Assembly (NCBI GenBank): GCA_918797485.1
Contig: CAKKNE010000005.1
Span: forward strand, 4,216,001 to 4,280,000
Source of the DNA: Pelagomonas calceolata
Lineage: Eukaryota
Direction of reading: 5' to 3'
DNA length: 64,000 nucleotides
In this document: piece by piece, positions 16,500 to 41,233 of the stretch
How positions within the stretch are numbered: position 1 is the stretch's first letter
How the letters are laid out: every line of letters starts with the position of its first letter
Made by a program: the position numbers and the translations under genes
Notes under the pieces: generated by a model
Database searches by the model: none
Told to the model about the DNA's origin: nothing
The model's input: the letters and a program-made list of their open reading frames with translations, nothing else

Positions 16500-16707
16500 T
16501 TTCTATGAGCTTTGGCGCGTCGTCGGCGTTTTACGCGCTGCTTTTTAATGGCTGCCTTTTTGAGATGCCTTTTTTTTATGCGTACGGAGCTGTTGCTGAC
16601 ACAGGTTCGCGTCGCAACTCGTTTTTACCAGTGATGGCAATCACGTACCGCACGCGTGCCTTGGCTCACTGCAGCGCGCCGCGCAAAAGCTCCGCGCCAA
16701 AGATGGA

Positions 16708-19857: not shown

Positions 19858-22468
19858 ATGGGCCAAAACCAACCAGGAGGCTTCCAGGACGACGGCGTGC
19901 CCTCGGCCGCGCCGCCGCCCGAGCTCACGACGATCACGGGCGTCGGCGTCCCGGGCGACGGCACGACGCGGCTGGACGAGGCCGAGGCCTCGCCCGCCCA
20001 AGAAGCTTTAGATCAAGCGCGCGTCCAGCAGCTCACGCCCGATAGCCATGATGAGCTCGTGTCGAACGCCGCCGACAACGACGAAAGACGCGCGGCGCGG
20101 GACGGGAGGGCCCAGTACGAGCGCCGCGTGCGCGCCCAGGACGAGGCGCCGCCGCCGCCCTCCGCCGCCATTCGCCAGGCCGTCGACCGCGCGGCCGCGC
20201 GGTCGCCGGGCCGCAGCGTCACGTCCCATAGTTCGGGCGACGCGCCGTCGCAGGAAGAAGCTCCCTCAGAATACATGTGCCCCATCACTTTATCGATGAT
20301 GGCCGACCCCGTCGTGGCCAACGACGGCCACTCGTATGAAAGGGCCGCCATCGCGCACTGGCTCGCGACGCACAACACGTCGCCGCAGACCCGAGAACCG
20401 ATGGTCTCGCGCGAGCTCGTGCCGAACCACGCGCTGCGCGCGCGCATCGCCGCCTGGCGGACGCAGCGCGGGTTAGATCCCTTGCCGGCGCGCTGGATCC
20501 CGCCCGCGGCGCCCGCGCCCGCGCCCCAACAACCGCAGCAGCGCCAGCCGCGGCCGACGGCGCTGCACTTGACGAACGAGCGCATGGCCGTCGTCTGCCA
20601 GGCGATCCACGGCGTTTTGAATAGAGCGCCCCACCTGCGGCAGACGCTGGGCCTCGCCGCGGCGCCGCGCGGCGCCGTGCCGCGGCTCGTGCTGTCGCGG
20701 CCGCGCGCCGTCGAGGCGCTCGCCCATTATGCCCGAGACGTGCCGGACCTCCAGCACTTCGCGGCCGTGCTCTCGCGCGTCGGCGACCGGCGTCCGCCCA
20801 CGCGGTTCTTCACTTGACGCGCCGATGGCGTGGAGGCCGGGCTCGGACGCCGTCGACGCGACGCGCCCCGCGCAGATCCACGCCCAGCAGCAGCGGGCCC
20901 TGGACCAGGCGAACTCGGGCCTGCCGCCGCCGCCGCCGCCGAACGCGCCCCAGCAGCCCCTTCCGTCGAGCTTCCCGACGCGGCAGCCCAACGCCGAGCC
21001 CGTACCCAGTAGAGCGGCAGCAAGATTGTCCGCGGCCTGCAGCGCCCTGCGGGCCGACGACGCGTCGGCCTTGGTGGCCGCGCTGACGGGCATCGGCCCT
21101 TCTGATTTGCACAACGTGCAATTACGAGAGGACTGCACGAACATGGCGTTAAGGTTGGGCAACAACGCGCCCGCGGCCTTGAGGAGGGCGGCGCACGACT
21201 GCGCGTCCGGCGATTCCATATTGCACGTCGCGTGCGCGCAGGGCGCGCACATGTGCGCCGCGCAGCTTATTGATCGCTTCGGCTTCGACCCGTCGGGGCG
21301 GGCGCCCTCGGACGGCGCCACGCCCCTCCACCTGGCGGCCTTCGCGGGGCGGAGGAAGCTCGTCGAGGCTTTACTAAGAAGAGGCGCGGACGCGAACGCG
21401 CGAAGCTTGGGCGCGGACCCGAACGCGATCCGCATGCGCGACGGCCCGCGGCCGCCGGTCTGCGCGGACGCGACGCCGCTGCATTACGCGTGCCTCGGCG
21501 TGCGCACGTCGCGGTCCGAGGCCGTCGAGGCCCTGCTCAAGGGCGGGGCGTCGCCGCATAGGAGAGATGAGCACGGCTCCACACCTTTACATGTGTGCTG
21601 CCACCGCGGCGTCGAGGGCGCGGCGCTCGCTTTATTAAAAGCCGCGTCCGAAAAGCCGCTCACGGACTTCAGCGAGGGCGCCTCGGCTTCCGATAGAGAC
21701 ACGGCCTACGCGTCGCGCCGCGACTACGTGGAGCGCTTCTCGCCGCTCCATCGCCTCGCGCAGTCGGGCCGGCCGGACTGGGCGCCCTCGAACCTCATAA
21801 AGAAGCTCGTCGAGGCGTCGGCGGACGTGCACTCGCTGTCGCGACGGGGCCTGACGCCGTTGCACGTCGCGGCGGCGGGCGGCCGCGCCGCGTCGTGCGG
21901 CGCGTTAGTACGAGCGGGCGCGAACGCCGGCTTCAGCCAGCGGGGCGGCGCGCACGAGACGCCCTTGCATGCAGCGGTCCGAGCGAAGCAGGTGGGAGCT
22001 TTAAGGGCGATGCTCGAGGCCTGCCCGGAAGATAAACGAAGGGCGACGTGCGACGCGCCGTCGCAGGACGGGTCGACTGCTTTACATTTAGCGTGCGCGC
22101 TGGGCAGCGTCGACGCGTGCGAAGCTTTGTTAGATGCGGGCGCGTCCGTCGACAGTAGGACGGACGACGGCGACGCGCCACTGCACGTCGCGGCCTGGAC
22201 GAACTCGTTGGCCGTCGCGGACGCGCTGCTCGCGCGCGGCGCGCCCGTCGACGCCGCGAAGCTCGACGGGAGCACTGCCTTGCATCTGTGCGCCGCGCGG
22301 GGCCTCCACGCGATGGCGCGCGGGCTCCTCGACCACGGCGCGGACCCGTCGCGGCGGACCGTGTCGGGCTCGAGCCCGCTGGACCGCGCGCGCCTCTTCC
22401 GCGACGACCGGCTCGCGCGCGTCCTCGAGCTCGCGGCCGCGACGCCGCCGGCGAGCCCCACTAACTAG
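19858..22468 (+). CDS. U-box + ankyrin-repeat E3 ligase-like protein, 2 exons (19858-20778, 20876-22468), ~837 aa
   Basis: U-box EYMCPITLSMMADPVVANDGHSYERAAI...NTSPQT...LVPNHALR. About 9 ankyrin repeats (TPLH/TALH). MGQ start could be myristoylated. Confidence 0.85.
20779..20875 (+). mobile_element. GT-AG intron, ~97 nt, introner remnant (donor could be 20767)
   Basis: Contains CGATGGCGTGGAGG and GTCGACGCG, ends CCCGCGCAG, and joins the U-box and ankyrin ORFs in phase 0. Confidence 0.7.
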
Positions 22469-22579: not shown

Positions 22580-25500
22580 CTAGGCCGGCGCGACGGAACC
22601 GTCGCCGCGGGCCGGCATCCGCAGGCACCAGAGCGCGCACGGGGCGCACACGCACCAGGTGACGAACATAAGTGCACACGCGACCTGCAGGCCCCAGTCG
22701 CTCCAGTAGAAGAACACGCCCCACTGGATGAGCTCCATGTCCCACGTGGTTCTTGTTGCTGGGCCGCGGGCGTTGTGCAGAGCTCTTGGGTCGTTGCGCC
22801 GACGCTTGGCATCGTTCGCGCACAAAGAGAGGGCCCCCAACACCAGATAACAGCCGAATTGGTAGCGGCAGCCGACGACCCACGCGTAGCGGTGGCACCC
22901 GAGGCACGTCGCCTCAAAGAAAGGCACCTTATCGAGTTCCTTCTGCGCCTCGTCGTCGGCCTCGGCCTGGAGCATCTCGGCGATCTCCCGGCCGAGCCGC
23001 GACTGCGCCAGACCCTCCTCGCCGCCGGCAATCCTCAAAAACACCTTCTCCATCGTCGCGCGCGCGAGCGAAAAGTCGATCACGCCGAGCCGCGCGCACG
23101 CGTCGTCGTCGAACGCGCGGAACGCGAGCGCCGGCGTCCGCCGCGGGTCGACGCCCGCGAGCTCGAGCGTCGCGATGTCCGCGTCCGCGGCGGCGACGTC
23201 GACGTCCGGCGACGAAAAGGCCTCGCGCGCGAACGCCACGAGGTCCGCAACGTGCGCGTCGTCCCGCGTCTCCAGGCGGCACGAGATTTCGTAGCCCGCC
23301 GCGTAGCGCTCCTTGAGCTCCTGCGGCGTCCCGATGCAGCGCATGGTGCCCTTGACCATGATGCCGACGCGGTCGCAGAGGAGATCGGCCTCGCCCATCG
23401 AGTGCGTCGTCAGGACGACGGCGCGGCCCTTCATCGTGACCTTGATGAGGTCCCAGAGATTCCTTTGCGCTCCTGGATCCAGGCCCGACGACGGCTCGTC
23501 CAGCAACACCACCGAGGGGCCGCCGACCAGCGCCACCGCGACCGCCAGCTTGCGCTTCATGCCCCCCGACAGGCGGCCCGCCGCTTTGTCGGCGTGGTCG
23601 GACAGGCCGACGACGGCGAGCGCTTGCTCCGCGGCATGGCGCGCGTCTCCTTCGATATCGACGCCCCGGAGCCGCGCGAAGAGACTCAGATGGTCTCGGC
23701 AGCTCAGGTGGTCCCAGAGGACGTTCTTTTGGTTGACGACGCCGAGCGCGCGCGCCGCCGCGTTCTCGAAGTCGAAAAGCACGCTCTTTCCCGCGACCCT
23801 GGCGTCCCCGGACGTCGGCTCGACGGCGCGGCAGACCATCGACACGGTCGTCGTCTTCCCGGCGCCGTTCGCGCCTAGTAAACCAAAGACCTGGCCCGTC
23901 GGCACGCCGAAGGCCGCGCACTGGACGGACTCGACGGCCGAACCGCCGAAGAACCGCGGCGGATATATCTTCCGCAGGTCCGAGACGACGAGGCCGTCGC
24001 GGTCCGCTGACTTGATGTCTCGCACGAGCGGCGGCGGGTACGGGTCGTCGCCCGGCGGCACGTTCCGCAGCATGGCGACGGTGTCACGCACGGCGGCGGA
24101 AAGGCTCATCCGCGGCTGCCGCGTCGGCGGCGCTTCCTCCTCCGGCTCGTCTACCACAATCTGGAAGTCGTCTTCGCCCGTCGACAGGGCGTCGCCCGCG
24201 CTCGCGGCGTCGCCCGCGCCGGTGAGCGCCGCGACGCGTGCGCGCTCCGCGGCGACGTCGTCGGGCATCGCGGTCGCGCGCGCCTTGGAGACACGCGTCT
24301 TCACCCAGGCGAGCGGGCGAAGGGCCCGTCGATCTTTAAAGAAGACTATTCCTTCATAAAGCACGATGTGGAACAAGGCGAAGATCACGGCCGCCCAGCC
24401 GCTCGGTAAAGGCGGGTCCGCGCGCTGCCGCCCCAGGGGCCCGTCGCCCGACGCCTCGAGAAATCCCGCGCGCTTCAGCTGCGGGTGGAAGGCCACCTTA
24501 CAGATCTGGACCGCCAAGTTGCCGAACGGCGTTGCGATCGATGCGAGCCACCCTATCTTACAGAGGAAATCTTGGCCGAGCATCTTGTCTGGATCGCTGG
24601 TGGCGACCCACCAGAGGCCCGCGAGCCCGGCCGGCGCCGCGCCGCCCAGGATAGCGATGAAAATGGGCGTCGACGCGACCGCGATGAGCGGAGAGTCGAA
24701 TGTCGTCGTCGCGAAGTGCGAGAAGCTCACGATCCCAGCGCTACAGAGCGGCAGTAAAATCCACAACCACGGCCAGCGTTCCATCCAGCGGCGGACGACA
24801 AATTTGGTTGCGTTCTGCCAGGCCCCGGCCCCGATGCCGTGGTCCCAGATGCTGCCGCAGTACCACTGCTTGATGGTATCGTAGGACTCGGAGCGCCACA
24901 GATCGTTCGGGTCTTCGTCGAAGCCCTGCGGGTACCTGCTTTTGAAAGCGTCCGCCATGGACTCGACGGTCGCATCGTAAGGCCCTAGGTCGAGCTGCTC
25001 CTTCCGAGCGGCCGCGTGGAGCTGCGCGTAGGTCGGCGCGCTGCTACATAACCGCTTGCGATATGCCATGCGCGTCGCCGCTAACATGAAAACGACGCAG
25101 ACCGAGCCGCCCACGAGTACCAGCGCGTCGCCGAGCCAGTTTCCCAGCCAGTACGTGAAGGTGTCGAGGCCCGAGACGGCCAATAGATTCCGCAGACCTC
25201 TGGCTCGCTCGCGGACGTAGGGCTCCACCACGAAGCCCGCCACAAGAAGATAGGCGGCCACCAGGACCCCCGCGACGAGGGTGTTGTAGTACTCCGCGTG
25301 TCTACTTTTGAAACCGAACGCCCGCTTTCCTTTGCCGGGCATTTGCGCGCGCACGACCAGCGGCATCGCCGCCGCCGCCACTTGGAGGAGCACCAGGGTC
25401 GTTCCATGTATCCCGGCGGAACAAAACGCTGAGGCGAAGACGGAGCCCAAAACTTCCACGACGAGGCCAACAAAGAATCCGGCGACGCCGCCGGCGGTCC

Positions 25501-28500
25501 GCGCCCGCGCGCGGCGGCCCGCCGCGCTCGCGGCCATGCGCCGAAACGTCTTTTTGCGCACGCTCAGGCATACGCTCCTGTGCGGAAATAAACCAGCGTT
25601 TTGGGTGCTTGGACTCTCCGCCCGTCGAAGAGTTAGAATTGAGCACTGAAAGCGCGCCAGCCCGTGAGCCATCCGACTAGGCATCCCGCGACCGCGCCGG
25701 CTGCCGACGTGGGTACGCCAAAGTACGGCCGGAGCCCAGCCTCGAGGCCGACCGCTACCGCCGTGGCTATCGCCCACGTCAGCCCTCCCGTAAAGGCGTG
25801 AAGAACGAAATGATGCTGCGCATTTAAACCACACACGCAAACGCCGAAAACGGAGCCGACGACGCATCCCGCGACCGAAAACGGCGCGGACAACGCGGCG
25901 CCTCCAATAAAACGTATGCCGCACTCCAAAGCAGCCAAGGCGAGTGTCGAAGCCGCAACGGCCGATCCGGCCGCCGTGCCCGCCGCCCACCCCCGGGGCG
26001 AATCCCGGCTTCCCTTTTCGGTCAAGCCCACAGCCAAGCCAACGATAAACCCCGAGGACAAAACCGCGGCGAGCACGGCGAAAGGCGTTGGCACGGTGAA
26101 AGTCGTGGCGCCGCCCTTGTCGCCGCGGGCGCGCTTGACGGCGCGCCGGAGCCCGCCGGGCAGCGCCGCGCCGCCGAGGACGAACTTTTTGATCCACACG
26201 AGGTCGTCTCTTATTTGCTGGAGCCTGTGTGGGAATCAAGAGGTGAGTCGAGGTCACTTTGATCTGTCTGCACCGCTGGGAGCCGAAACTGGACCACGGC
26301 CGCGACGAGCCTCCCCGCCGGCACCGGCTCGCCCGGCGCCGACGGCAGCAAGGCCCCGCCAACCAACGTCTCCGCCTCTACGGGCGCCGCCGCGCCCTCG
26401 ACCTGCTCGCCGACGGATATGAACACGTCCTCGAGCGACGTCGCCGTCACGGAAACGTCGACGAGACCCAAGCCGTCGGCCTCGGCCTCCAGCCCCTCGA
26501 AGAGAGCGGCGACGCGCGCCTTGGATGCGTGGATGGTGTACGTCGTCGTGACGTCGCGCGCGGAGTCCTCGAGGAGGGGGGCCTCGGCGCCGTCCGCCCA
26601 GTTCCGCGACGCGGAGAAGCTCGCGCCCCGGGTCGCGTTCAGGAGCGGGCTCTTAAATGATGAGGAAAAGCTTTTGGGTGTCGACCCGAGGAGCGGATTC
26701 GCGGCGTCCGTTTCGGTCGCCCGGCGGAGGTCCTCCTCGAGCTTCGAGGCCGCCGCTAGCTTGGCTTTGGGCATGTGCTGCGCAAAAACCGCTTTAAGTT
26801 GATCGCGCGCCGCGGCGGCCGTCGTCACCGCGATGTGAAGGCCGCCGGTCGACGTGCCGTCCGCTGCGTCGTCGCCCCCGCCGAAGTGCCGCTTCAGGAA
26901 AGATAGAGTGCCGCAGCACGTCACGCTCCCGGCCGCCATGATCGCCACCCGGTCCGCCAACGCTTCGGCCTCCTCCATGTGGTGCGTCGTGAGGAGCACC
27001 GACCGGTCGACGCGGACGTCGCGCAGCAGGGTCCAGACCTCGCGCCGCGCCACGGGGTCCATCCCCGCCGTCGGCTCGTCGAGGACCACGAGTCTGGACC
27101 CGCCGGTCAGCGCCGCGGCCATCATCACTTTGCGCTTCTGGCCGCCCGAGAGCTTGAGCGGAAACCCCTCGGCCATTTCCGTGAGGCGGAAGAGCTCCAG
27201 CAGGCCAGACGCCTCGTTCTCCGCTCTAGATTCCTCGACGCCCTTGAGCCGCGAGTAGAAAATGAGGTGCTCCCGGAGCGTGAGCCGAGGGAATAGCGCG
27301 TCGTGCTGCGGGCAGAAGCCGAGGAGCTGGCGGAGCCTATCCAAACCATCCGCGTCGGCTAAGGGGCCGAGCGTGCGGATCCCGAAGAAACTTGCGCTGC
27401 CGCCGTCGGGCGCCATTGCTCCAGTCATCATCGACATGGTGGTCGTCTTGCCCGCGCCGTTGTGACCCAGCAGGCAGAAAATCTCCGAGTCGCGGATCGC
27501 GAACGTCGCGTCGGATACGGCGACCTTCTTCCCGAAGACCTTCCGGAGGCCTCTTACCTGGACCGGCGCGTCGCTATCTTTATCATTCTCGAACCACTCG
27601 TCGTGGTCCACGAGCGGCGCCTTCTCCACGACCTCGTCCGGCGGCGGCGGTCGCCAGTACGCCTTCCGGAGGCAAAAGAGCAGGTCCTTGCCCTTGCCCC
27701 GCGCCGCCGACGTGGACACCTGGATCACGTACCACAGGACGGCCGCCCACAACACCACGGACACCATCAGCATGCAGTAGACCCCGGCCGTCCACGCGGA
27801 CTCGGGCCGCCAGCCCCGATCCTCAGTCTTCTCGTACCAGAAGGGCCAGACGTCCTCGCACATGAGGTGCTCGTCGGCGCAGGGCGCCGCCGTCAGCGAC
27901 TTCCTCGCCAGATGCTGCTCGAAGGCCTCGCGCCGCGGCCTCGGGGCTTTTTCCCAGCACTCTTTTCTACACTTCTCGCACGGGTAGCGCTCCCCCACAA
28001 AACCGTCGTCGACGAGCCAGCACCGCCAGCCCGCTCGTTTTTTCGTCGGGCTGAACGAGTCCACCAACAAATCGTAGGCGAACTGCGGCAGGAGCGCGCT
28101 TGCGAAGTGCGCGCGCGGCCGCGCCCGCAAGCGCCAGTTCGTTTTGTATCTCCGTTTCCCAACGTTCCAGGTCCGGAGCGGGGCCCAGAGCAAGTAGCAC
28201 CCGTGCAGGGCCGCGTGCAACAGGGGCGGGAGCCCCGCCGCGGCGATCTGCGACCGAAGGAGGCACGTGACCACCACGAAGGTCTGGAGGACGAGCGCCA
28301 GCAGAAAGAGCCAGTGGAGGGCGAAGAGCTCGAGGAACGCGGCGACCTCGAAACTCTTGCCGGCGCGCCGGAAGAGGCCCGGCGCGGCGCCCGCGGCGAT
28401 CGCGACGGCGACGCCGCCGCCGACGGCGACGCCCTCGACCAAAAAGGATGCGAGCCAGTAGGCCGCGTCGGCGCCGCCCGCCGCGCGCGTCGCCTCGCGC

Positions 28501-31500
28501 GTGCCTTGCGCAACGTCCCCCACCAACGCCGAGGCGACGACCTGGACCCACGGCACGAAGAACAACTGGAAGATGACGAGCTCGAAGTCGCCGTGGTTCG
28601 TGTCGAAGGTCGTCCGCTTGCGGGTCTTCGTGACGGCCGTCGGCGCGCTCGTCGCGCTCGTATCGCTTGCAACGGTGCTCCTCGCTAGCCGGTTCTCTTC
28701 CCTGGCGTTGTACAGTAACCACAGGACGCCGACGCCGAGGAGCGGGACGAATACTTGCTTGGCCAGCGCGGCGGTCGTGCGCTTTTTTATAATCCACGCC
28801 TTGCGCGCGAGGAGCGCGGTGCGTTCCGTGAGCGACGGCGGCTCGGCGGCGTGTTTCGGCGCGACGGCGCCGTCGCCCGCGGGCGCCGCCTCCGCGAGCG
28901 AGAAGAGCTGGCCCCTTTGGACGCCCTCCGGCACCTTGACCTTGATGCCATCGGGGCGGGTCACGATCGTGCCCGGCGGGCCCGGCGCCACGACCCAGGG
29001 GGCCGTCTGCTCCGTCCCGTCCTCCGCGGTGTAGACGGCCGCGGGCGGCCGCTTGACCAGGCATCGCCGGAAGGAGTCGCACAAGCAGTAGCAGTAGCGC
29101 GCGAGACAGGACCGCGCGGCCGCCGCTCCTTTCCTGAAGGGCCACGCGACGGCCGCGGCGCCGGCCGAAATTTTTCCCACGCACGGCGAGAGCTTCTCCA
29201 GAATTGGCGCGACGTGGCGTCCGAACCAGGAGCGCCGCTCGCAGAACTTCTCGTAGCGCGCGCGGACCTGCTCGCGGAACACGATGAGCAGCCCGCCGAA
29301 GAACAGGAAGAAAAAGAGCGCCGCGGCGCCCGCCCCTAATTGCCCGCTGAGCGTCACCGCGAGCACTACGGGAACGACCGTGACAAAAAGTAGCGCGGGC
29401 CGGCGCAGACAGAGCTCCAGACTCGCGAAGAACCAGCCGCCGCAGCACCAGAAGAGGCCCCACCGCGTCAGCTTCCCGTCCGCCGCCCAGTTCCGGATTT
29501 TCTGGAGCCGGGCGTAGCCCCAGCACGTCGGCTGCGATATGCAGCAGGCCCAGGCGACGCCCGCCGCCCAGAGACCCACGAGCGCCAGGATCGCCAGGAC
29601 CTGGCGCCAGGTCCACCACGTCGGGTCCGCGTCCCAGGCGATGGTCGCGTCGAAGCCGCAGACGTCCGGGATCGCCTCGCCGCCGCCCGCGTCGGGCCAC
29701 CGCTTCACCGCGTCCTTGAGCTTCTCGAAGAGGACCGGGTCGTGGCCGAGCTCGTCGCACGTCTTCCCGCAGGTCCCGAGGCAGCCGCTGTAGAACTCTC
29801 GCTCCGCGTCCTGCGCGCACGCGTCGGCCGCCGCCGCCGTCGGCCGCGCCTCGAGCCCGCTCCAGCGCCGCGGCGCGCGGGAAGAGGCCCAGAAGTGCGT
29901 CCACGGGTGCTCGACGTACGTCTCCGGTTGCTCATGTTCATGATGCTTTTCGTGATGCCGGTAGTACGGATCGCCCAGGGGTTCCACGCGGAAATCGGCG
30001 CCGTGCCACGGCGTCCGGTAGGGGGCCTCGCCGCTGATACTCGCAGATTCAGGAGCTCTGTCTGCGCAGCCGGCGCAAGTGTTTCTGCAGCCGGCGCAGC
30101 CGGCCTCGTCCCAGCGCTTCTTCTCCCGGAGCTGCGCGTGGAAGAAATCGCCGTCGGCGGTCACGACGCCGCAGGCCCGGATCCGCATCCGCTCGCCCTC
30201 CCACCGATTCTTCGCGGTGTGCGGCCAGGGCCGCCGACCCGGCAGGTCCGTACGCCACCACGACCGGTGGCAGGGGCTTCGGCCGTACCAGCCGAACCAG
30301 TAGTCCAGGAACGACCACCAGCGCCACTTGTGGGAGCGCACGTAGTACAGCGTCTGCGTGTCGGGGTCGCACCGCAGGTCGTCGCAGGCGTACGGCGCGC
30401 GCCGCGGCGAGAACCCGCAGGGCCGGTCGCGGACGTGCTCTATCCCCGCGGCGCGCCCGGTCCAGCCCGCGGTCCCCCCTTTTCCGTACAGCTCCTCGAT
30501 TTTGTGGGCCGGCACCGCGTCGTAGGCCGCGCCGAAGTACTTGAGGAGGACGTCGCACCGCCGCAGCCCGGTCTCGTGGAAGCAGACGGGGAGCGGCGCC
30601 ACGCAACCGGCCGGCGCCGTCGCGTTCGTGCAGCAGGCGCCGACGCCCGGCACGTAGTCCATGCCCGCGAGCCGGTGCCCGTCGGCGCAGTACCGCGCCG
30701 CGGCCGGCGGGCCGAAGGCGCGGAGCGCCACATCGGCTACATTGACGCCTTGGATGGGCGGTGCGACGCGCGAGCAGTCGTCGTTATAGTTCAGCCCAAG
30801 GTCGCCCGGGTCGCGGTCGACGACGTCCTCGAGGGCGGCGATCCGCGGCCCGCCGGGCTTGAACGAGCGGCAGGCGTCCGCGTTGCAGTCGCCGCGCCGC
30901 GTCGGCTTCGTGAACGGATCGGTTTTCCGTATCTCCCAATACTGGCCGCTCATGTCGTAGTGCGACCAGAAAGTAACTATTCTGGCGCGGCACTCGGTCT
31001 CGCGGAACCACTCGCCCTCGTCCCAGCCGTGGCGCGTCCCGTCGTCGACGATGTAGACCTTGCTCGTCGTGTTGGGGCAGTGGTCCGAAGAGTCGTCGCA
31101 GCAAAGGTAATGGAACTCGATGCCACCCGCTGCCCAGTGTGGGACAGGGAACTTCCCCTCGTTCGCGTGGGCCTCCCAGCACACCGCGCCCGCCCGGTCC
31201 ACTTCGGTGGCGGTCAACGCCTCCGCGTCGCCCTTGCAGCAGGTGAAGACGCAGGGCGCGTCCCCCGGCACGACCGTGTAGCCGTCCTCGCACACGGGGA
31301 CCTCGTTCGGCCCCGCGCAGCACTGGCCCCGGGGCGCTCGCGCGATCCCGTCCCAACAATTTTCGGATTGCATGGTCCAGGGCCGCTGCTCCGTGCATTC
31401 CGTGTGGTGGTCGCCGTGTTCGGTCCGTCGCGCCTTGCGCACCGAGCACGCGAGGTCGTCGACGCCGGGCCCGCAGGACCCGTCGTCGACGCCGCGGCGA

Positions 31501-34500
31501 ACGCGCGCGCACTCGCAGTCGGCGCTGAAGTCGCAGCAGTCGCCGCAGTCGTGGTACCCGACCGGGCACCACCCTTCGGGCTGGGACACGTTGTCGTGGT
31601 ACGCGAGGCTGCATATTTCCCAACCGCACACGAATGGGTAAGTACCATAGCGGCTGTCGTCGTTCCATCGTCCTGAGTCGGAGATCACGATGTAGGGCTC
31701 GTCGCCCCCCCCGTTGTTGGGCTCTCCGAATTCCCAGTTCTCGTAATCCCACGCCGTACCGTCCGACCAAGTCCACGTGCCCTCTTGGGCCGCATCGGAG
31801 CCCCCGATCCAGCATCCACCGTGACAAAGCGCCGCAACTGCCGCATTCTCGCTGGAGCTGTGGATTGACGCGAGGTCGTGATAGTGCGCGCGGCAGTACG
31901 CGCGCGCATCGTCAAAGCTCTTCGCTTGATCGACGTGCACGAAGGAGCCGCTGGTTGTAACACGTACGTTCTCCCCCTCGTGTATTGGTGCAAGCGTCGC
32001 CGTCGGCGTTGCTGTTGTCGGCGCCGGAGTCGGCGCGGGCGTCGCCGTCGGTGCTGCCGTTGTCGGCGCAGGAGTGGGCACGGGCTTGGCCCCGTTCCGC
32101 GAGCACAGGTACGACGACCGGCAGTTACGGCACCAGTAGTCAAAGAACTCAAAGCCCTCGTTTTCCGTCCAGCCGTGCGTGCCAAGCCAGCAGCCGGCTT
32201 CGTAGTCGCCGTTTGGCTCGCTGTAGCTCGACAACCGCATGAACCACGGATCCCCGGCAACGCTTTTCCAGCCGACGCCGCCGTACGTGGCCATAGCGTC
32301 GCTGTTCATCGCGTAGCCCTGGCACGAACCGCAGCCTCTCTCGTCGCGGTAAATGCCAACGAGTGGGTCATACCAGCCCGTCGCCTCGACGACGGCGAGC
32401 GCGTGCGCGTAGCTGCGCGGGACCCAGATGTCGAAGCCTGCCGGGCAGCTGTTCTCGTCCGTGTGGCGGCACGTATATTGGCCGTCCTCGACGAGCAGGA
32501 CGTCGTAGATCTCGCCGTCAGCCTCGACGCAGTAGCCCGTATGTCCTTCGTACTTAAATCTACCGGCCGAAGAGCAGTCCGACGGCCATGGCGCCGTCGG
32601 CGCGGAGGTAGGCGCTTCCGACCACGAGCAGATCTCCACAGAGTCCCAGGCGGCCTCGCAACCGTCGCAGTCCGCGCCGACGTAGGCATAGAGCGGTCCG
32701 GACGCGCCAATAGTGTCCGAGAGACTGAGGTCGCCACTGACTCCACTGACTTCCCCACAGCACTCGTACCTCTCCTCCTCGGGGCACCAATAATTCTGCC
32801 CGCCCGAGCGGGGCACGAAGCCCGCTACGCGACACCCGCGGGGCTCGTCCCAATGTTCCGACGCGCAACAGTCATCTCCGTAGTCGGTGCAGATGTCGTT
32901 TCGGCAGTCGATCGTCACCGTCTCCGCCTCGGTAGGGTCCCGAAACGTCACCGTCGACTCGTCGATCGTGATCTCGATGTCGTAGGTCTGCCGCGACGGA
33001 CTATAGGTGGACACGACGCCGGTCTGGCCGTAGATGGCCCGGTAATCGCAGTTCCACACGAACGTGACAAAGCCGGGGCGGTTGGACCACGGCGCGCCCG
33101 AATCAGTGCTTTGGGTGGAGACCTTTATGTAGTGGTCCGAACAATCGTCAGTCTTGTCGAGCGACCCGCTGATCATCAGCGGGGCCTCGATGATTGTATT
33201 CGCCGTGCGAATGTGCGCGCCATTGTTCGCGTTCTTGCAGACCAACACCCCGGCGCCGCTGAGCGCGCACTCGCCGTCGCCGCCGGCGGAAGACGTCCAC
33301 TGCGGGTCGAGGCTGGTCCCTTCGAAGTCGTCCGACACGCAGGTCGTGGTCGTCGGTGCAGCCGGCGGGGTCGGCCTGGGCGAGGGTGCGGGCGTGGGCC
33401 GCGGCTCCGCCAGTCGCGCCGTGCAACTACTATCGCAGGCGCAGTCCGCGTCGCGGTCGCAGCAATCGCCGCACTCGTAGTATCCTTCGGGGCACCGGGG
33501 CGTGCGCCATTCATGCGCGTAGGCGTCGCCACCGAGCCCGTCGCAGGAGCAGTCCGCGTCCTGGTCGCAGCAGTTGGCGCACGTGTAGTAGCCCGCGAGG
33601 CAGCCGTCGAAGTCCGTCGTTGGCTCGACGGCGCCCGGTTCCGTCGCGCAGCACTGGTACACCGCGTCCGGGTCCTCGCACGCCCCGTCGCGCGACACGC
33701 CGCCCGACCGGACGGCGTAGCCCGCGAGGCTGCACCCCGGCCGCTCGGGGAACGGCGCGCAGCAGTCCCACCCGTAGTCGGTGCAGATGTCGCTCCGGCA
33801 CGTCTCGTTCGCCGCCGGGCGGTTTCCGGCGGCGTCCGGGCACCCGAACTTGTACAATTGCCAGTCGTCCAGCGCCGCGATTCTCGCGGCGCAATGATCC
33901 GTGACGCAGCGACACGTGATGTCGGGACTCCAGTAGAAGTACTCGCCGTCGCACCCGGTCCCGGCGAGTGCGCGCACGGCGGCGGCGCACTCCTTGAGGC
34001 CCATGCGGGACCGCGCGCCGTCGTAATAGGACCAGGGATGGTCGATGATCTCGTACGCGCCCTCGCTGATTTGTCCGAGGCGGGCGGTGCGCGCGCAGGC
34101 GCGGTCGAAGACCGGGCCGACGTAGCTGGGCGACGAACAGTTCCCGCTGCCCGCGCACGTGATTATGACTCCCTGCGTGTCGTAGAGGTTCGAGGCCGGG
34201 AGGGCCTCGGGGGCGTGGCGCGCGTCGCACGTGAGGTAGCCCAGGGTCCCGTCGTGGCTATAGACCTCCGGCTCGAGGCGGCCGAGCGGCTCGAACACGC
34301 CGCTGCAATGTTCGTCCTTCGCGCACCTCTCCAGCAAAAACGGGACGAAGTCGTCCATGTACGGATCGTTTGCCGCGAGGGGCGTGCAGCGACGGTCAAA
34401 GGTGTAGGCGTACGGCCAGCGACAAGGAAGCGACAGCTGCCGGCTGCACTTCGAGTTGTCGCACACCGTCGGTGGCTCGGGCAGCTGCGGGATCCACGGC

Positions 34501-34889
34501 GCGTAGTCGCCGCAGCAGTACAAGAAGGAGTGGCCGCAGCTCGCCGCATCTGGGTACCGCACCGGATCATGATGGGTGTGGCAGGGATGCGGGTCGGGCG
34601 CGTGCTGGACGCTGTGCAGACTGCAGAGTGGTCCGTTCGCCCATTTCCCGTACTGAAGCCACTCGTCGCTGCCGTCCGACACGGGCACCCACGTGTCCGA
34701 GCTGTAAACGCCGCCATCGAACGGCGCACCGGTCGGACAGAGCTCTTCGGACGAGCAGAGGCCCTGGCCGCGGGACTCGCACTCCTCGCGCGCGGCGTTC
34801 CACGACACGGATGGCCGTTCACCGGCGGGGCTCGGTCGAGCGGCACTACTGACGAGCGCCGCGGCGACGACGACGCGACCGAGCCGCAT
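22580..34889 (-). CDS. Giant ABCA-family transporter with N-terminal Cys-rich / C-type lectin ectodomain, 3 exons (34889-26284, 26224-25658, 25577-22580), ~4056 aa
   Basis: Signal peptide. CTLD with WIG, EPN and WND. ABCA start LLARKAWIIKKR. NBD1 GHNGAGKTT/LSGGQ/LDEPT and NBD2 GANGAGKTT/LSGGM/LDEPS. Two GC-AG introns give a total of 12171 nt, divisible by 3. Confidence 0.8.
25578..25657 (-). mobile_element. GC-AG intron, 80 nt, introner-derived
   Basis: GCGCGCTT...GCACCC...CGCTGGTTTATTTCCGCACAG (TIR-like end). Restores LTGW|SVCLS. Confidence 0.7.
26225..26283 (-). mobile_element. GC-AG intron, 59 nt, introner-derived
   Basis: GCTCCCAG+CGGTGCAGACAGATCAA...TTGATTCCCACACAG|GCTCCAGC. Near-intact TSD and right TIR matching 14/15. 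Confidence 0.8.
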
Positions 34890-35074
34890 CGTCACCGGCG
34901 CTGCTCACTCCGCTTGTGCTTGGTTGGCACGCTGCCCCCGTCCTACGAGTCGCAGTGCGCTTGATGGTCCTTGCTCCGCTTGCATGGGCACGGCACGCTG
35001 CTCACCAATCGCACTGCCTGCCAGTTGGCACGGCCGGCTGCCCCGTAATACAAAAAGCAGCGCTCTGAATAATA

Positions 35075-35101
35075 GCTAGCGGCCTTGTAAGACACTAGCA
35101 G
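35075..35101 (-). promoter_or_regulatory. Conserved intergenic motif copy 5
   Basis: + strand GCTAGCGGCCTTGTAAGACACTAGCAG between divergent genes. Confidence 0.75.
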
Positions 35102-35288
35102 TAAATGCAACAAGCGGCGCGCCTCATTTGAAGCCGAACCTGTGCACATATAAGCGCACGTGCGCGAGGGGGGTCCAATTTATCGCAAACACTGCGGCTG
35201 CGCCCTGTGTGTTGCGGCGGTGTGCCCAATAGCAGCCAGGCGCCGCCCCCCCCCGATCGACAGCAGCTGCGAGCCACACGCCGCATTG

Positions 35289-38200
35289 ATGATGGACAGC
35301 AGCCACGAGCTCCCCGGCGCCGCCCCATTGCTCGACGCCCTCGGAGCAGAGACCGCGGCACCGCTGCTCGCGCTCGCCGCGGCCACGGAACGCGTCGGCG
35401 AGGTGAGGCTCCCAGCGACGCTCAGCGCGCAGCAGCGCCACGCCGTCCACGTCTTCTGCGAGGGCGTCGGCCTGCAGTCGACGAGCGCGGGCGCCGGCGA
35501 CGACCGCCAGGTGAGTTGCCGCGACGTCGCGTTCGACGGCGCCGCGTGGGCCCGGAGCACGCTGCGGGCCCTCGAGGCCGAGCGGGACGCCGAGGCGTCC
35601 GAGCTCGACGTCGCGCTCCAGACCCTGACGGCGAACGAGTGCGCGGCGCGCGGCATCACGGTGCTCGGTTTGCGGGCGGCCGACGTCGACGTGGGCGGCC
35701 CCGGCGGCCGCACGCGCCTCCGCCTCGCGCACGCGAACGGCCTCATGCTCCCGGCGCACCGCCTCGGCGTCCGGTCCGAGGTGACCGTGCGGGGCAAGCA
35801 CGGCGCGCGCGTCGAGGGCGTCGTCTCGCGCGTGACGCAGGATATGATTGACGTGCTGACCGACGCCGACGACGAGGCCGTGGCCGCGGTGGGCGTCAAG
35901 GGGCTGCGCGTCGACGCGCGGCCGAACGCCGCCACGCTCGGGTGCCTCCGGCGCGCGTGCGCGGCCGTCGCCACGCTCACGGCGGAGAACGAGCTCTGCG
36001 CGCAGCTGCTGGGCCGCGCGCCGCCCGCAACACGATTAGGTGACGAGCCGCGCTGGCTCAACGCCGCCCTGGACGCCTCGCAGCGCGACGCTGTCCGAAG
36101 GGCGCTCGCGGCGCCGCCGCTCTTGCTAATCCACGGGCCGCCGGGCACGGGCAAGACGACGACGCTCGTCGAGATCGTCTGCCAGGCCGCTTCCCTAGGC
36201 CAGCGCGTGCTCTGCTGCGGCGCGTCGAACCAGAGCGTGGACAACCTGCTCGAGCGCGTCGCGGACGTCGTCGAGTCGAAAGCCTGGCGCAAGCGGCAGG
36301 GGCGGAAATCTAGACCGGTCCAACTGTTGCGGCTGGGCCACCCCGCGCGCCTGTCTCCAATCGTATTGCGCCACGCCGTCGAGCGGCGGTTGCGGGACGC
36401 GGACGGCGCCGACGTCGTCGAGGACGCGCGGAACGAGGCGCGGGACCTCGCGCGGCGCGCGGCCACGGACAAGGCGGCGCGGCGCGACGTGCGCGCCGTC
36501 AGGGCCGAGGTGCGCCGCCGCGAGGGCGAGCTGTTGACGCGGTTGGTGGGGGCGACGCGCGTCGTCTTCGCGACGAACGCGGGCGCGGCGCGGCGGGAGA
36601 TTTGTGAAGAGCGCTTCGATCTGGTCGTCGTGGACGAGGCGGCCCAGGCCCTGGAGGCGTCGTGCTGGATCCCTTTACTGAAGGGCGACCGGGCGATCCT
36701 GGCCGGCGACCACAAGCAACTGCCGCCCACCGTGAAGTGCGACGGTATCGAGGCGGAATTACTCGGGAGGACGTTGTTCGAGCGGCTGATGGAGGACAAG
36801 CGGCCCGGCTGTAAAGAGAGGCGGAGCGTCCTGCTCACGACGCAGTACCGCATGCACGGTGATATATGTGAGTGGGCCTCGGCGGCGTCCTACGGCGGGT
36901 TGCTGGAGGCGGCGCCGGTCTGCGTGAGGCGCGACCTGTACGAGGACTACCTCGCGAATGACGAGGATCGTCTGGCGGTGATGGTCCACGTGGACACGTG
37001 CGGGCTAGGCCTGGACGACGACTCGAGCGGGACGGAGGAGCACGGCGCGCACTCGGTAGGGAACGAAGGCGAGGCGCGCGTCGTCGTGAAGCACGTCGAA
37101 TTGCTGCTGAAGCGAGGCATGGCGCCCGGTCACATTTGTGTGGTTGCGCCGTACCACGCGCAAGTTACTTTGTTAAGAACCATGCTCCCGGCCGACGTCG
37201 ACTGCAAGACCGTGGACGGGTATCAAGGAGGGGAGCGCGACGCCGTCGTGCTGTCGCTGACGCGGTCGAACCCGCATCGAGTCGTGGGCTTCCTCGCGGA
37301 CGAGCGGCGCCTGAACGTGGCCGTGACGCGCGCGCGGCGCCACGTCTGCGTCGTCGGCGACTCGGATACCGTGCGCGCGTCGCCGTTCATCGCCGCGCTG
37401 CTCGACCACGTCGCGAACGTCGGCGACTACGTCTCGGCGGCGGAGTACCTGCCCGCGGCGGCGACCGTCGTCGCGGCGCCTGTGGCCGCTCCAATCGAGG
37501 CGGCGCCCGAGCCCACGCCTGCAGCGCCGCCGGCTGCGCCCGAGCCGCCCACGCCTGAAGCGGCGGCGCCCGCTGTGGAGGATGAGGCGCCCGCCGAGAG
37601 TCCTCCGGCCACCGCGGCGGCGCCGCTGCCGCCGGCGTCGGGCGAGCTGCGCGTCGCGTTTGCCGGCGCCACGGTCTTCGTGCCCTTCGCGCCGGCCTGG
37701 ACCGTCGGCGAGCTCAAGGTTGCCATCGAAGAGGCGACGGGCGTCGAGATTCCGCGCCAGAAGCTCGTCGGCGCGGGAAAATTCGTGGACGACTCGATGG
37801 CCCTCGCCGCCGCGGCGCCGCGGCTCGCCAGTGGCGCCAAGCTCATTCTGATGGCTATTCCGCGGCCCGAGGACGCCGTCGCGCCGCCACCGCCGCCAAA
37901 AGGCAAGAACGCGCAAAAGAAGGCGCGGCGCAAGGCGCGCGCGGCCGCTGCCGCCGCGCCCGTCGCGGCGCCTGCACCCGCGGCGCCGAAAACGTTCGGG
38001 AGCGGGGCCAGCGGCGAAGCGGCCCGGCAGCTGGCGGGTGCGAACGCGCTGCTCCAGAAGCTCGCGCAGGACCGCGCGGCGCGGGCGGCGGCGCGGCCCG
38101 CCCCGGCGCCGAAGCTGGCGCCGCGGCCCCCTGCGAAGAAGAAGAAAGCGCCGAAGACGAAGCCTCCACCGGCCGACGACGACCTGGGTCTGGACGACGA

Positions 38201-38411
38201 CGCGCTGCTCGACGCGGCGATCAAGGCCAACGCCAAAGAGAAAAAACGTGAGCCCGAGTACAAACGCTGGATAGACGCTGACGGAAACATCAAGGGGAAC
38301 ACGCTCCACTCGAGACAGGCGGAACGGGACCGGGCGGCGCTCCTCGCCAAGCTTGAGAAAAAGAAGGCAGGGGCCGCTCGCGAGAAGAAAAAGCAGCCCA
38401 CAAAAAAGTAA
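35289..38411 (+). CDS. UPF1-like SF1 helicase (IGHMBP2/SMUBP-2/Hcs1 type) with N-terminal R3H and C-terminal ubiquitin-like domain
   Basis: HGPPGTGKTTT, SNQSVDNL, VDEAAQ, GDHKQLPP, QYRM, TVDGYQGGE, RRLNVAVTRAR. R3H LSAQQRHAVH. UBL TVGELKVAIEEATGVEIPRQKL. Confidence 0.9.
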   Translation: MMDSSHELPGAAPLLDALGAETAAPLLALAAATERVGEVRLPATLSAQQRHAVHVFCEGVGLQSTSAGAGDDRQVSCRDVAFDGAAWARSTLRALEAERDAEASELDVALQTLTANECAARGITVLGLRAADVDVGGPGGRTRLRLAHANGLMLPAHRLGVRSEVTVRGKHGARVEGVVSRVTQDMIDVLTDADDEAVAAVGVKGLRVDARPNAATLGCLRRACAAVATLTAENELCAQLLGRAPPATRLGDEPRWLNAALDASQRDAVRRALAAPPLLLIHGPPGTGKTTTLVEIVCQAASLGQRVLCCGASNQSVDNLLERVADVVESKAWRKRQGRKSRPVQLLRLGHPARLSPIVLRHAVERRLRDADGADVVEDARNEARDLARRAATDKAARRDVRAVRAEVRRREGELLTRLVGATRVVFATNAGAARREICEERFDLVVVDEAAQALEASCWIPLLKGDRAILAGDHKQLPPTVKCDGIEAELLGRTLFERLMEDKRPGCKERRSVLLTTQYRMHGDICEWASAASYGGLLEAAPVCVRRDLYEDYLANDEDRLAVMVHVDTCGLGLDDDSSGTEEHGAHSVGNEGEARVVVKHVELLLKRGMAPGHICVVAPYHAQVTLLRTMLPADVDCKTVDGYQGGERDAVVLSLTRSNPHRVVGFLADERRLNVAVTRARRHVCVVGDSDTVRASPFIAALLDHVANVGDYVSAAEYLPAAATVVAAPVAAPIEAAPEPTPAAPPAAPEPPTPEAAAPAVEDEAPAESPPATAAAPLPPASGELRVAFAGATVFVPFAPAWTVGELKVAIEEATGVEIPRQKLVGAGKFVDDSMALAAAAPRLASGAKLILMAIPRPEDAVAPPPPPKGKNAQKKARRKARAAAAAAPVAAPAPAAPKTFGSGASGEAARQLAGANALLQKLAQDRAARAAARPAPAPKLAPRPPAKKKKAPKTKPPPADDDLGLDDDALLDAAIKANAKEKKREPEYKRWIDADGNIKGNTLHSRQAERDRAALLAKLEKKKAGAAREKKKQPTKK

Positions 38412-38474: not shown

Positions 38475-39758
38475 CTAGAGGAGGGGCTTCTCCAAACCGT
38501 CCGGCACGGCGCGGACGACGCCGACGGCCAGCGCCGACGGGTGCGCCACGAGGCCGTCGAGGAGCATGAACCCAATAATCGCCAGCGCGTTCGCCCACTC
38601 GAGCACGGCCAGCGTGTCTAATAAGGAAGGCGGCACATGCATAATGTGGCGCATATGGATCGGTGCGCAGAGCCAGCATACAATCGCGCACGTAACTCGC
38701 GCCCGCGATGAGGCGTCGTCGAGCACCGCGCAGACCGTCCAAATGTCATACCCATAAAAGAAGACGAGGGCCCCCGTTATGTGCAAAGGAAAGTTCTCGG
38801 ACTCGTCGCAGCAGCCCACGATGGATAAACCAACCAACGATACAATGGCCACGACCAGACCCATCTTTCTAAGTTTTGATGTTGTATCAGCGAACATGGC
38901 CACATGCGCGACCCAGCCGGCATGGCAGCCCTGCATCACGGCCCAGCGCGAGAGCCAGTTGCCCGGGATCTGCGTCCACATGTCGCTGATGAACCAGAAG
39001 CGGCGGTGGTTTCGTGGGATGTAGCCCGCGTGCAGACCCATCACGCAACTCACAAGTAAGGTGGATACGTATATGACGCCGCAAAGCTTCAGTAAAGAGT
39101 CGCTCGTGATACTCCAGATTGTGTTCTGCAGTCGCCCGAAGCCCCACCTCAGATCACGATCGACGCGCCGCGCCGACCACACTAACACGAGCAAGATATT
39201 GGTCCACTCCAGGCAAGCGACCCACCAGAGCCGCGTGTGGTACGTAGTCCTTGTAGTGGTGCATATGGTCGCCAACAAAGCCAGCACCAAGTCCTGCTCG
39301 TAGGAAACGAGCATGACAAGATCATATAAAACGAACCACGTGATGGCGAAGAACGAGTGCACGTATAAATTACCTTTGCATTGGCGATTCGGGCTGTCGC
39401 AGATCGACCCCACGACCGACAGGCACAAGATAGCTGCCAGACTCACCCTCAGACACAACTTTTGTTTCGTCGAGCCGCGGCCCGCCGCCGCCTCCGGGTA
39501 TATAAATACTTGTAATAACGCGAGGCAGCCCGTCGCCAGCCCGACGAGCCACCTGCTAAAGTACGTGCCCGGCGCCGTGTCCCACGTGTTGCTGATCGTC
39601 GGCAGGAAGGGGTCCCTGCCCTCGGCGAGCCAGATGGCGTAGCCGCCGCCGATGGCGGACAGGCAGATCACGGTGGGAACGGCCGTGTACTGGAGGGCAC
39701 TCATTGTCATTGGCGTCGGTGGCGTCGATTCGCACGGCGTTGGCGGTCTGGTCATCAT
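38475..39758 (-). CDS. Multi-pass membrane protein with tandem Frag1/DRAM/Sfk1-like domains
   Basis: Two internal repeats: ISNTW..PG.YFSRW...VH...F..YD...LEW.N and ISDMW..PGNWLSRW...LH...F..YD...LEW.N. Start codon uncertain (39758/39710/39704). Confidence 0.7.
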   Translation of the reverse strand: MMTRPPTPCESTPPTPMTMSALQYTAVPTVICLSAIGGGYAIWLAEGRDPFLPTISNTWDTAPGTYFSRWLVGLATGCLALLQVFIYPEAAAGRGSTKQKLCLRVSLAAILCLSVVGSICDSPNRQCKGNLYVHSFFAITWFVLYDLVMLVSYEQDLVLALLATICTTTRTTYHTRLWWVACLEWTNILLVLVWSARRVDRDLRWGFGRLQNTIWSITSDSLLKLCGVIYVSTLLVSCVMGLHAGYIPRNHRRFWFISDMWTQIPGNWLSRWAVMQGCHAGWVAHVAMFADTTSKLRKMGLVVAIVSLVGLSIVGCCDESENFPLHITGALVFFYGYDIWTVCAVLDDASSRARVTCAIVCWLCAPIHMRHIMHVPPSLLDTLAVLEWANALAIIGFMLLDGLVAHPSALAVGVVRAVPDGLEKPLL

Positions 39759-39948
39759 GCTCTTGGTGTGTGCGTCGATTCGCGTTCCGTGAGCGCTTGG
39801 AGCTGGAGATGAGGTCGACAGCTTCACTATTCAGAGTTCTTAACGCACGAGCAGCGTCTCCGTGCGCCGCAGCGGTCGATCACCCGGCCGGTGGCACAAG
39901 ATTATGAGCTAGATCCAGAGACGCTCTAGGAAAATTTAATGTACTCGT

Positions 39949-41038: not shown

Positions 41039-41233
41039 TAAATCGAGCGCGTTGCACGCCCGGGCAGCCCGGGCAGCCGAACTAGTGGCCAGCTCGCACG
41101 CCGGGACGGCCCAAAGGCTGCCAGCGACCCACAGACGCCGCCGCGGCGCGGCTCTCCACGCCGCCGCCGCAACACCCAATTATACCTCTGATACGTCGAG
41201 CGGGCAGCCGCCGCGCGCGCGTCAGAAGCAGCC

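What the first reader, a model, noticed from the sequence alone, without database searches (positions are those of the whole stretch)
22580..34889. ~4,056-aa receptor-like ABCA transporter with a lectin ectodomain
Seen: three ORFs join through two short introns into one frame. The order is signal peptide, then ~1,750 aa of Cys-rich extracellular modules, extra TM helices, a cytosolic linker, a complete ABCA (TMD-NBD-TMD-NBD with intact Walker and signature motifs), and a further hydrophobic C-terminal tail. The ectodomain and NBD1 lie in one uninterrupted 8.6-kb exon, so that fusion does not depend on my splice calls. Established: canonical ABCAs begin at the LL.K....KR motif, which here is ~2,000 aa from the start. 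Inference: a glycan-sensing or adhesion module directly coupled to a lipid transporter, an architecture I do not know to be described.
Basis: partly seen in the sequence, partly recalled or inferred. Interest (0 to 1): 0.78.

Follow-up and report, generated by a model that had tools for sequence, protein, structure and literature searches.

The report
Lectin-tipped ABCA transporter lacking outer domains
This genome, likely a marine alga's, holds a spliced 4,056-amino-acid gene whose ABCA-type pump lacks the two outer domains of ordinary ABCA lipid pumps and is instead fused to a long stalk of exchangeable lectin-type modules, predicted to lie outside the cell, which would likely tether the pump to sugar-coated surfaces.

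Summary
Three exons on the minus strand give exactly 4,056 aa. Both introns (59 and 80 nt, GC-AG) are confirmed by spliced public contigs. Independent assemblies bridge the ectodomain-ABCA junction, so it is not a chimera.

The gene belongs to a pelagophyte ABCA clade (Aureococcus, Chrysophaeum, probably Pelagomonas here). All six members lack both canonical exoplasmic domains (loops of about 30 and 10-20 aa against medians of 230 and 171). All start with a signal-peptide-like stretch and a novel Cys-bonded domain, and four also show an extra TM helix.

This gene stacks about 1,490 aa of shuffled modules on top: DUF7495, a likely divergent CTLD, and an EPN/WND CTLD 91% identical to one in a single-pass multi-lectin protein. 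Paralogs lack the lectin cassette, and near-identical relatives carry a different tip.

Most likely it is an ATP-driven lipid translocase tethered to glycans by a variable stalk, not gated by it. Function is untested, and no read or contig spans the whole mRNA. No description was found in ten literature searches. New variant of a known kind.

The parts
34836..34889 (-). Start Met and signal-peptide-like stretch (aa 1-18)
   Evidence: Sequence. 15 fetched relatives carry the same 12-residue start. Not run through a signal-peptide predictor.
34500..34811 (-). Tip module, DUF7495/PF24325 (aa 27-130); replaced by a different module in close relatives
   Evidence: Pfam E 2.5e-10, above cut-off. Tip swap in 12 of 15 fetched sequences with this start.
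33423..34499 (-). Cys-rich modules aa 131-489, including repeat A1 and two CxxGYYxC..CCD..DC.C repeats
   Evidence: Shared with paralogs P0141/P0169 at about 45% identity. No Pfam hit for aa 131-363.
32610..33341 (-). Beta-rich module aa 517-760 with repeat A2 nested in it; start of the optional lectin cassette
   Evidence: Also found in a subtilase/SRCR protein and in a repeat protein (P0182, P0181, P0180). No Pfam hit. Fold not determined.
32082..32579 (-). Likely divergent second C-type lectin domain with EPN (aa 771-936)
   Evidence: ESM Atlas 0.93, 26 of 30 hits to a set with Lectin_C on 29% of members (a lead only). No Pfam hit. Own CTLD HMM not significant.
31965..32081 (-). Pro/Thr-rich linker (45-nt tandem repeat)
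31620..31952 (-). C-type lectin domain with EPN and WND; inner disulfide Cys pair absent (aa 980-1090)
   Evidence: Pfam; PDB lectins, best E 4e-14. 99/109 identical to P0173/P0184 and 105/109 to P0175.
30420..31619 (-). Cys-rich modules aa 1091-1490, shared with paralogs
   Evidence: No Pfam hit.
29610..30419 (-). Clade-defining membrane-proximal Cys domain (aa 1491-1760, with insertions)
   Evidence: Aligns with the N-termini of P0001, P0002, P0003 and P0122. Model of the P0122-cluster copy: long beta-sheet plus helices, pLDDT 61, no clear fold match.
29544..29600 (-). TM0, predicted extra transmembrane helix (aa 1764-1782)
   Evidence: Hydropathy. Present in P0001, P0002 and P0122; missing from the P0003 and P0121 models.
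29277..29393 (-). Additional predicted TM hairpin (aa 1833-1871), only in the window's sub-lineage
   Evidence: Also in P0218, P0127 and P0134.
28830..29276 (-). Predicted cytosolic linker (aa 1872-2020)
   Evidence: Sequence; bridged by P0218, P0129 and P0216.
27714..28829 (-). TMD1 (aa 2021-2392): TM1-TM2 gap of 45 aa, no ECD1, degenerate coupling motif, enlarged Cys-containing TM5-TM6 loop
26865..27563 (-). NBD1 with intact motifs
26225..26283 (-). Intron 1, 59 nt, GC-AG, probably a decayed mobile (introner-type) intron
   Evidence: Spliced in 3 of 4 runs. Conserved in L001/L002; 3' end resembles the element's terminal repeat.
25658..26224 (-). Exon 2: IH3-like motif and a Gly/Ala-rich hydrophobic insert (about 5 segments)
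   Evidence: pN/pS 0.19 against L001/L002 on 9 changes. No Pfam hit.
25578..25657 (-). Intron 2, 80 nt, GC-AG
   Evidence: Spliced in 2 of 4 runs, unspliced in an X2 contig.
24338..25477 (-). TMD2 (aa 3092-3471): TM7-TM8 gap of 21 aa, no ECD2, coupling motif intact
   Evidence: ABC2_membrane_3 matches only from profile position 159.
23276..23983 (-). NBD2 with intact motifs
22580..22948 (-). Cys-rich hydrophobic C-terminal tail and stop; conserved in kind across the clade

Best explanation
This is one 4,056-aa protein in which an ABCA-family ATPase pump without the two canonical outer domains is fused to a long modular stalk, predicted to be extracellular; it likely moves lipids across or out of the cell membrane while the stalk's lectin modules likely tether it to mannose/GlcNAc/fucose-type glycans. 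Shown: the fused reading frame, both splices, intact NBD motifs, absence of ECD1/ECD2, membership of a pelagophyte ABCA clade with a conserved N-terminal Cys domain, and module gain, loss and swapping. Inferred: the signal peptide and an odd number of extra helices (3 here, 1 in relatives) put the stalk outside and the ABCA in its normal orientation. The conserved membrane-proximal domain takes the place above the TMDs that the ECDs vacated. ATP drives lipid translocation in or just out of the bilayer. The distal lectin cassette and tip set where this happens (own wall or theca, prey, particle or virus contact) and do not switch the pump.
For: Single frame and splices. Junction bridged by exact or near-exact contigs 29040-29785, 29291-29796 and 29315-29766 in 3 of 4 runs, by P0218 in one ORF over aa 1290-2096, and by P0129/P0170. 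Clade of 6 of 36 rows, SH-aLRT 100 on a quick tree. No ECD1/ECD2 HMM hit in 6 of 6 members, against strong hits in the 4 canonical proteins printed (which helped build the HMM). Canonical loops are 130-378 aa (103 of 117 measurable) and 128-509 aa (116 of 117). P0122 matches the ECD-less ABC2_membrane model from position 1. EPN/WND intact. Cassette aa 490-1090 absent from P0141, P0169 and P0145. CTLD 99/109 identical to a single-pass multi-CTLD protein. Tip differs while the next 150 aa are 139-150/150 identical in 10 sequences. Purifying selection on the ABC half, pN/pS 0.17-0.46.
Against: No read or contig spans the mRNA. Raw-read sense depth in the 5' half falls to 0.04-0.16 in one bin, antisense often exceeds sense, and most ABC-half reads come from a closer, stronger paralog. 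Some contigs keep the introns, so exact-match contigs may be antisense RNA or DNA. No listed contig bridges 28,800-29,040. The TMD1 coupling motif has lost its hydrophobic residues (also in 6 of 6 close relatives checked). The IH1/TM1 HMM hits in the clade are weak (1.3-6.7 bits). No substrate or ligand evidence. The CTLD lacks its inner disulfide. ABCA1's export route needs the ECD tunnel (PMC9381790, abstract), so the lipid path here must differ.
Confidence: 0.45

Rival explanations
1. Receptor-like ABC switch: ligand binding by the stalk is passed through TM0 and the hairpin to the ABC core, which acts as a regulated pump or signalling ATPase rather than a bulk lipid pump.
For: ECDs lost, TMD1 coupling motif degenerate, extra membrane segments in TMD2 and at the C-terminus. 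A variable tip is typical of recognition proteins.
Against: The lectins lie about 670 aa and flexible Pro/Thr linkers away from a single TM0. The cassette is optional and recent. Both NBDs are fully canonical.
Confidence: 0.2
2. Only the conserved membrane-proximal domain matters (an ECD substitute that accepts or presents lipid). The distal lectin modules are passengers of frequent module shuffling among the alga's surface proteins, with little effect on the transporter.
For: Aureococcus and Chrysophaeum members have only that domain. Modules are shared with unrelated surface proteins.
Against: The long stalk stays open-framed and 93-100% identical over aa 131-806 in many environmental copies. 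EPN/WND is kept. GC3 stays 0.79-0.91 along the ectodomain.
Confidence: 0.18
3. The ectodomain works apart from the pump: it is shed by proteolysis, or made from a separate shorter transcript, giving a secreted or wall lectin and an ordinary clade-type ABCA.
For: Thin sense coverage and no spanning transcript. All 43 representative hits are fragments of 685 aa or less.
Against: No stop or intron in 8.6 kb. The ABCA half has no signal peptide of its own. Contigs and independent ORFs cross the junction. The fragments come mostly from short contigs.
Confidence: 0.13
4. Assembly chimera or decaying pseudogene.
For: Near-identical paralogs and mosaic tails exist. Expression is low.
Against: Exact-match contigs from separate studies, both introns spliced. 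Same architecture in independent genomes. pN/pS below 0.5.
Confidence: 0.04

Closest known systems
ABCA full transporters (human ABCA1/3/4/7; plant ABCA1)
   Same: TMD-NBD-TMD-NBD order. The best solved relatives are ABCA3, 4, 1 and 7 (E 5e-108 to 1e-93). NBD motifs intact.
   Different: No ECD1/ECD2. About 2,020 aa before IH1 (signal peptide, ectodomain, 3 extra TM). Enlarged TM5-TM6 loop, hydrophobic insert in TMD2, membrane-type C-terminal tail. R1 regulatory domain below the Pfam cut-off.
Unnamed pelagophyte ABCA clade (Chrysophaeum KAJ8600222.1; Aureococcus KAH8064618.1, KAK7233399.1; P0122)
   Same: Signal-peptide-like start, same Cys domain, TM0, ECD-less TMDs, Cys-rich tail. One clade with SH-aLRT 100.
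   Different: Those are 1,930-2,130 aa with no lectin stalk, no extra hairpin and an intact TMD1 coupling motif. They are annotated only as ATPase, ABC transporter or hypothetical.
Yeast Adp1-type ABCG half transporters
   Same: ABC transporter with a large N-terminal soluble domain of Cys-rich (EGF) repeats and an extra TM region; function unknown (PMC2848647, passages).
   Different: ABCG half-size with one NBD, EGF not CTLD, no loss of ABCA ECDs.
Single-pass multi-CTLD surface proteins of Pelagomonas calceolata (CAH0367572.1 / P0184)
   Same: CTLD 99/109 identical; DUF7495 and repeat A shared.
   Different: One TM helix and a short tail, no ABC domains; likely donor or recipient of modules.

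Membership tests
ABCA subfamily | NBDs group with ABCA | tested here: met
   All 120 listed hits are ABCA-type. Top 13 PDB sequences are ABCA. TIGR01257 is the best NCBIfam hit, far below its cut-off.
ABCA subfamily | TMD-NBD-TMD-NBD order with intact Walker A/B, signature, Q- and H-loops | tested here: met
ABCA subfamily | Large extracellular domain between the first two TM helices of each TMD (PMC2848647) | tested here: not met
   Gaps of 45 and 21 aa. No ECD HMM hit. ABC2_membrane_3 matches only from position 159 of 347, against 4 of 347 in canonical P0005.
ABCA subfamily | N-terminus at cytosolic IH1 (LL.K...KR) within tens of residues | tested here: not met
   IH1 at aa about 2025. Canonical hits: median 20, max 245 of 117.
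ABCA subfamily | Conserved EKE...MGL coupling motif after TM2 and TM8 | tested here: inconclusive
   Intact in TMD2 (23 bits), degenerate in TMD1 (no HMM hit).
ABCA subfamily | Regulatory domain after each NBD | tested here: inconclusive
   R1_ABCA1 E 0.15, below cut-off; SLEDVF/MEKVF motifs present.
ABCA subfamily | ATP-driven lipid transport | not testable with these tools
   Needs biochemistry.
Ca-dependent C-type lectin (mannose-type) | CTLD fold sequence with EPN and WND | tested here: met
   Pfam above cut-off; EPN 1056, WND 1075; PDB lectins.
Ca-dependent C-type lectin (mannose-type) | Inner disulfide flanking the Ca site | tested here: not met
   Both Cys are replaced here and in P0173/P0175.
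Ca-dependent C-type lectin (mannose-type) | Sugar binding | not testable with these tools
   Needs a glycan array.
ABCA ECD (as origin of the N-terminal clade domain) | Sequence or fold similarity to ECD1/ECD2 | tested here: inconclusive
   No HMM hit. A medium-confidence model gave no Foldseek E<=0.001 and best Z 4.4.

The most novel reading that the evidence does not exclude
Pelagophytes evolved a receptor-like ABCA class in which both lipid-exit domains were discarded and replaced by a new N-terminal ectodomain on its own TM helix. In Pelagomonas this ectodomain became a recombining lectin stalk with swappable tips, so glycan recognition of viruses, bacteria or particles directly directs or triggers ATP-driven membrane lipid remodelling: an immune-receptor-like ABC transporter family.
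Probability: 0.25. Interest if true: 0.85.

Novelty: new variant of a known kind. Interest (0 to 1): 0.66.

Why it matters
Large exoplasmic domains are treated as a defining feature of ABCA transporters and are central to one model of ABCA1 lipid export. A natural, selected clade that lacks them is a ready test of whether the ABCA membrane core can flip or extrude lipid alone; the 2,090-aa Aureococcus and Chrysophaeum proteins are tractable for cryo-EM. The lectin-stalk version, with cassettes gained and tips swapped among near-identical environmental copies, points to a variable surface-recognition system in what is probably one of the most abundant oceanic algae. It appears as a single protein in none of the databases searched.

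Tried and rejected
No genome was available.

AlphaFold of aa 514-1100 failed (mean pLDDT 37) and was not used. The clade-domain model (pLDDT 61) gave no clear fold match. ESM Atlas gave no usable hit for that domain.

Complex prediction of the clade domain against the TMDs was not available. Docking above the TMDs is untested.

A global MSA mis-aligned the clade's N-terminus to ECD1, so its clade values were discarded and replaced by local HMMs. There the clade's IH1/TM1 hits fell under my 8-bit cut, so loops of 29-31 aa for P0001, P0002, P0003, P0121 and P0122 were worked out by hand from the best weak hits.

The careful tree did not finish; the quick tree is quoted, on 36 hand-picked rows of 123 sequences.

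The fall of contig depth from 3' to 5' in X1 was noted but not used, as contig depth cannot rank parts of a gene.

The idea that symmetric exon 2 was gained by exon shuffling was dropped. Paralog L003 has homologous sequence without intron 2, and both introns resemble decayed mobile introns.

The first metagenome scan found nothing. Three look-ups of earlier findings were empty. The long plus-strand ORF 31869-34964 reads as an antisense shadow (not scanned against families). The SNP rows (23 of 38 and 28 of 40 synonymous) are a capped, paralog-dominated subset and carry little weight.

Full report
OBSERVATION. The minus-strand frame from the Met at 34,889 runs 2,892 codons without a stop. It holds both a C-type lectin domain and an ABC NBD; by composition alone this has a probability of about 7e-28 for the 2,868 codons of exon 1. 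Public contigs from four studies were laid on the locus (three runs are only guessed to be RNA). Joints 26219->26279 (3 of 4 runs) and 25576->25657 (2 of 4 runs) define GC-AG introns 26283-26225 and 25657-25578, and one contig spans both. The three exons give 12,171 nt, or 4,056 aa plus stop. Both introns are conserved in two environmental loci of 95% identity, and the ABC half shows pN/pS of 0.17-0.46.

IS THE FUSION REAL? Contigs with 0, 0 and 4 differences cover 29040-29785, 29291-29796 and 29315-29766. No listed piece covers 28,800-29,040, but 1,510 pieces were not shown. Proteins from other assemblies cross the junction in one ORF: P0218 aa 1290-2096, P0133 1637-1931, P0129 1928-2180, P0170 1941-2344. 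Against a full-length mRNA: nothing spans it, and some contigs retain introns. In raw polyA reads of one sample (6-12% of each run read) sense depth in the 5' half is thin, down to 0.04-0.16 in one bin. Antisense often exceeds sense there, and the ABC half is dominated by a stronger paralog. A chimera is very unlikely; a full-length transcript is likely but not shown.

ORGANISM. Inferred: Pelagomonas calceolata or a close relative. A protein labelled with that species shares the CTLD at 99/109, the nearest full-length relatives are pelagophytes, and GC-AG introns are about 14% in that species (bioRxiv 2024.10.30.620910, passages).

WHAT IT BELONGS TO. The three best of 120 listed hits (224 found), and two more from a region search, are 1,930-2,130-aa ABCAs of Aureococcus, Chrysophaeum and unnamed assemblies. 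All begin with a signal-peptide-like stretch and a Cys domain of about 200 aa homologous to aa 1491-1760 here. P0001, P0002 and P0122 then have one hydrophobic helix and a linker before IH1; the P0003 and P0121 models lack that helix. They form one clade with the window protein (SH-aLRT 100, quick tree, 36 rows). None of the six hits HMMs built from canonical ECD1 or ECD2. Their TM1-TM2 loop is about 30 aa, against 130-378 (median 230; 103 of 117 measurable). The canonical TM7-TM8 loop is 128-509 (median 171; 116 of 117), against 21 aa here. The clade's TM1 hits are weak, but P0122 matches the ECD-less ABC2_membrane model from its first position, and the ABCA3 alignment puts TM1 at the same place. 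A large loop between the first two helices is given as characteristic of ABC-A (PMC2848647, passages), so this is an ABCA by descent that fails a defining structural feature. The clade domain folds (pLDDT 61) as a long sheet plus helices with no clear match.

THE STALK. From the tip: DUF7495; Cys-rich modules; a cassette (aa about 490-1090) made of a Pro/Thr linker, a beta-rich module also seen in a subtilase/SRCR protein, a likely divergent CTLD with EPN (a lead only), a second linker and a CTLD with EPN/WND; then more Cys modules and the clade domain. Paralog fragments P0141, P0169 and P0145 join the equivalents of aa 489 and about 1091 directly, so the cassette is optional. Their link to an ABC half is inferred from shared modules, since they are fragments. 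The CTLD is 91% identical to one in a single-pass multi-lectin protein. Of 15 fetched sequences with the same start, 3 have the window's tip and 12 a different one. Ten of the 12 are 139-150 of 150 identical right after the tip; one was too short and one lacked the anchor. The 12 come largely from one cluster listing, so the ratio is no frequency. Whether the tips are alleles or paralogs is open.

HOW IT MOST LIKELY WORKS. Extra helices are odd in number (TM0 plus a hairpin here, TM0 alone in relatives), so a signal peptide would put the stalk outside and leave the ABCA normally oriented (inference). Both NBDs are intact. ABCA1 is proposed to pass lipid into a tunnel in its ECD (PMC9381790, abstract); without ECDs this protein would flip lipid within the bilayer, or hand it to the conserved proximal domain or an acceptor. 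The lectins are far from the membrane, flexibly linked, optional and recent, which suits a tether that places the pump at glycan-coated contacts (0.45). Gating or signalling (0.2) gains from the degenerate TMD1 coupling motif. Passenger modules (0.18) and a shed ectodomain (0.13) remain. EPN as a mannose/GlcNAc/fucose sign is recalled knowledge; binding is untested.

KNOWN OR NEW. The nearest precedent is yeast Adp1, an ABCG with an EGF-repeat domain. No listed homolog carries both PF00059 and PF00005. The representative search gave 43 hits, all fragments of 685 aa or less. Ten full-text searches (listings only, apart from the papers named) found no description of a CTLD-ABCA fusion or of this clade. 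The library lacks most subscription journals, and I read no supplements, where pelagophyte ABC inventories could mention it. PMC13284251 (one passage) had nothing relevant. Verdict: real, a new variant of ABCA, function inferred. Interest 0.66.

Noticed in passing
window 45490-45703; shorter matches near 61890-61992, 62370-62408, 8994-9031, 9644-9665, 52409-52426; L001 about 4710-4899; L004 204-745: A repeated element of about 200 nt with terminal inverted repeats ending in AG, inserted at different coding positions in related loci (three copies in NBD2 of L004, one in the tail of L001). It looks like an active introner-type mobile intron (name recalled, not looked up). Both introns of the gene end in decayed versions of its 3' repeat.
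   Followed up: partly
window 22900-31200 (reads and contigs): One or more strongly expressed paralogs, 92-97% identical over the NBDs, share short pieces of the clade domain. L001 has the window's body but the paralog's C-terminal tail, suggesting gene conversion.
   Followed up: partly
window 29000-35100: Antisense-oriented polyA reads often exceed sense reads over the ectodomain exon; part comes from short matches of other transcripts.
   Followed up: no
window 35154-38411 (+): Divergent neighbour: SMUBP-2/IGHMBP2-type SF1 helicase with R3H and an unusual ubiquitin-like domain. One contig runs from the ABCA 5' end towards it.
   Followed up: no
window 20621-22468 (+): Convergent ankyrin-repeat gene ending about 110 nt from the ABCA stop.
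   Followed up: no
window 3401-6994 (+): Full-size ABCG/PDR-type transporter.
   Followed up: no
window 13530-16502 (-), 50110-52332 (+), 57982-60579 (+), 38475-39830 (-), 1273-3027 (-), 41192-42889 (+), 7637-10982 (+): Nckap1 (WAVE complex), AMP-binding plus PP-binding enzyme, CRAL-TRIO, Frag1/DRAM, GST, MORN-repeat and EF-hand proteins.
   Followed up: no
P0003, P0121: These public Aureococcus models lack TM0 or parts of the clade domain relative to P0001/P0185, probably gene-model errors.
   Followed up: partly
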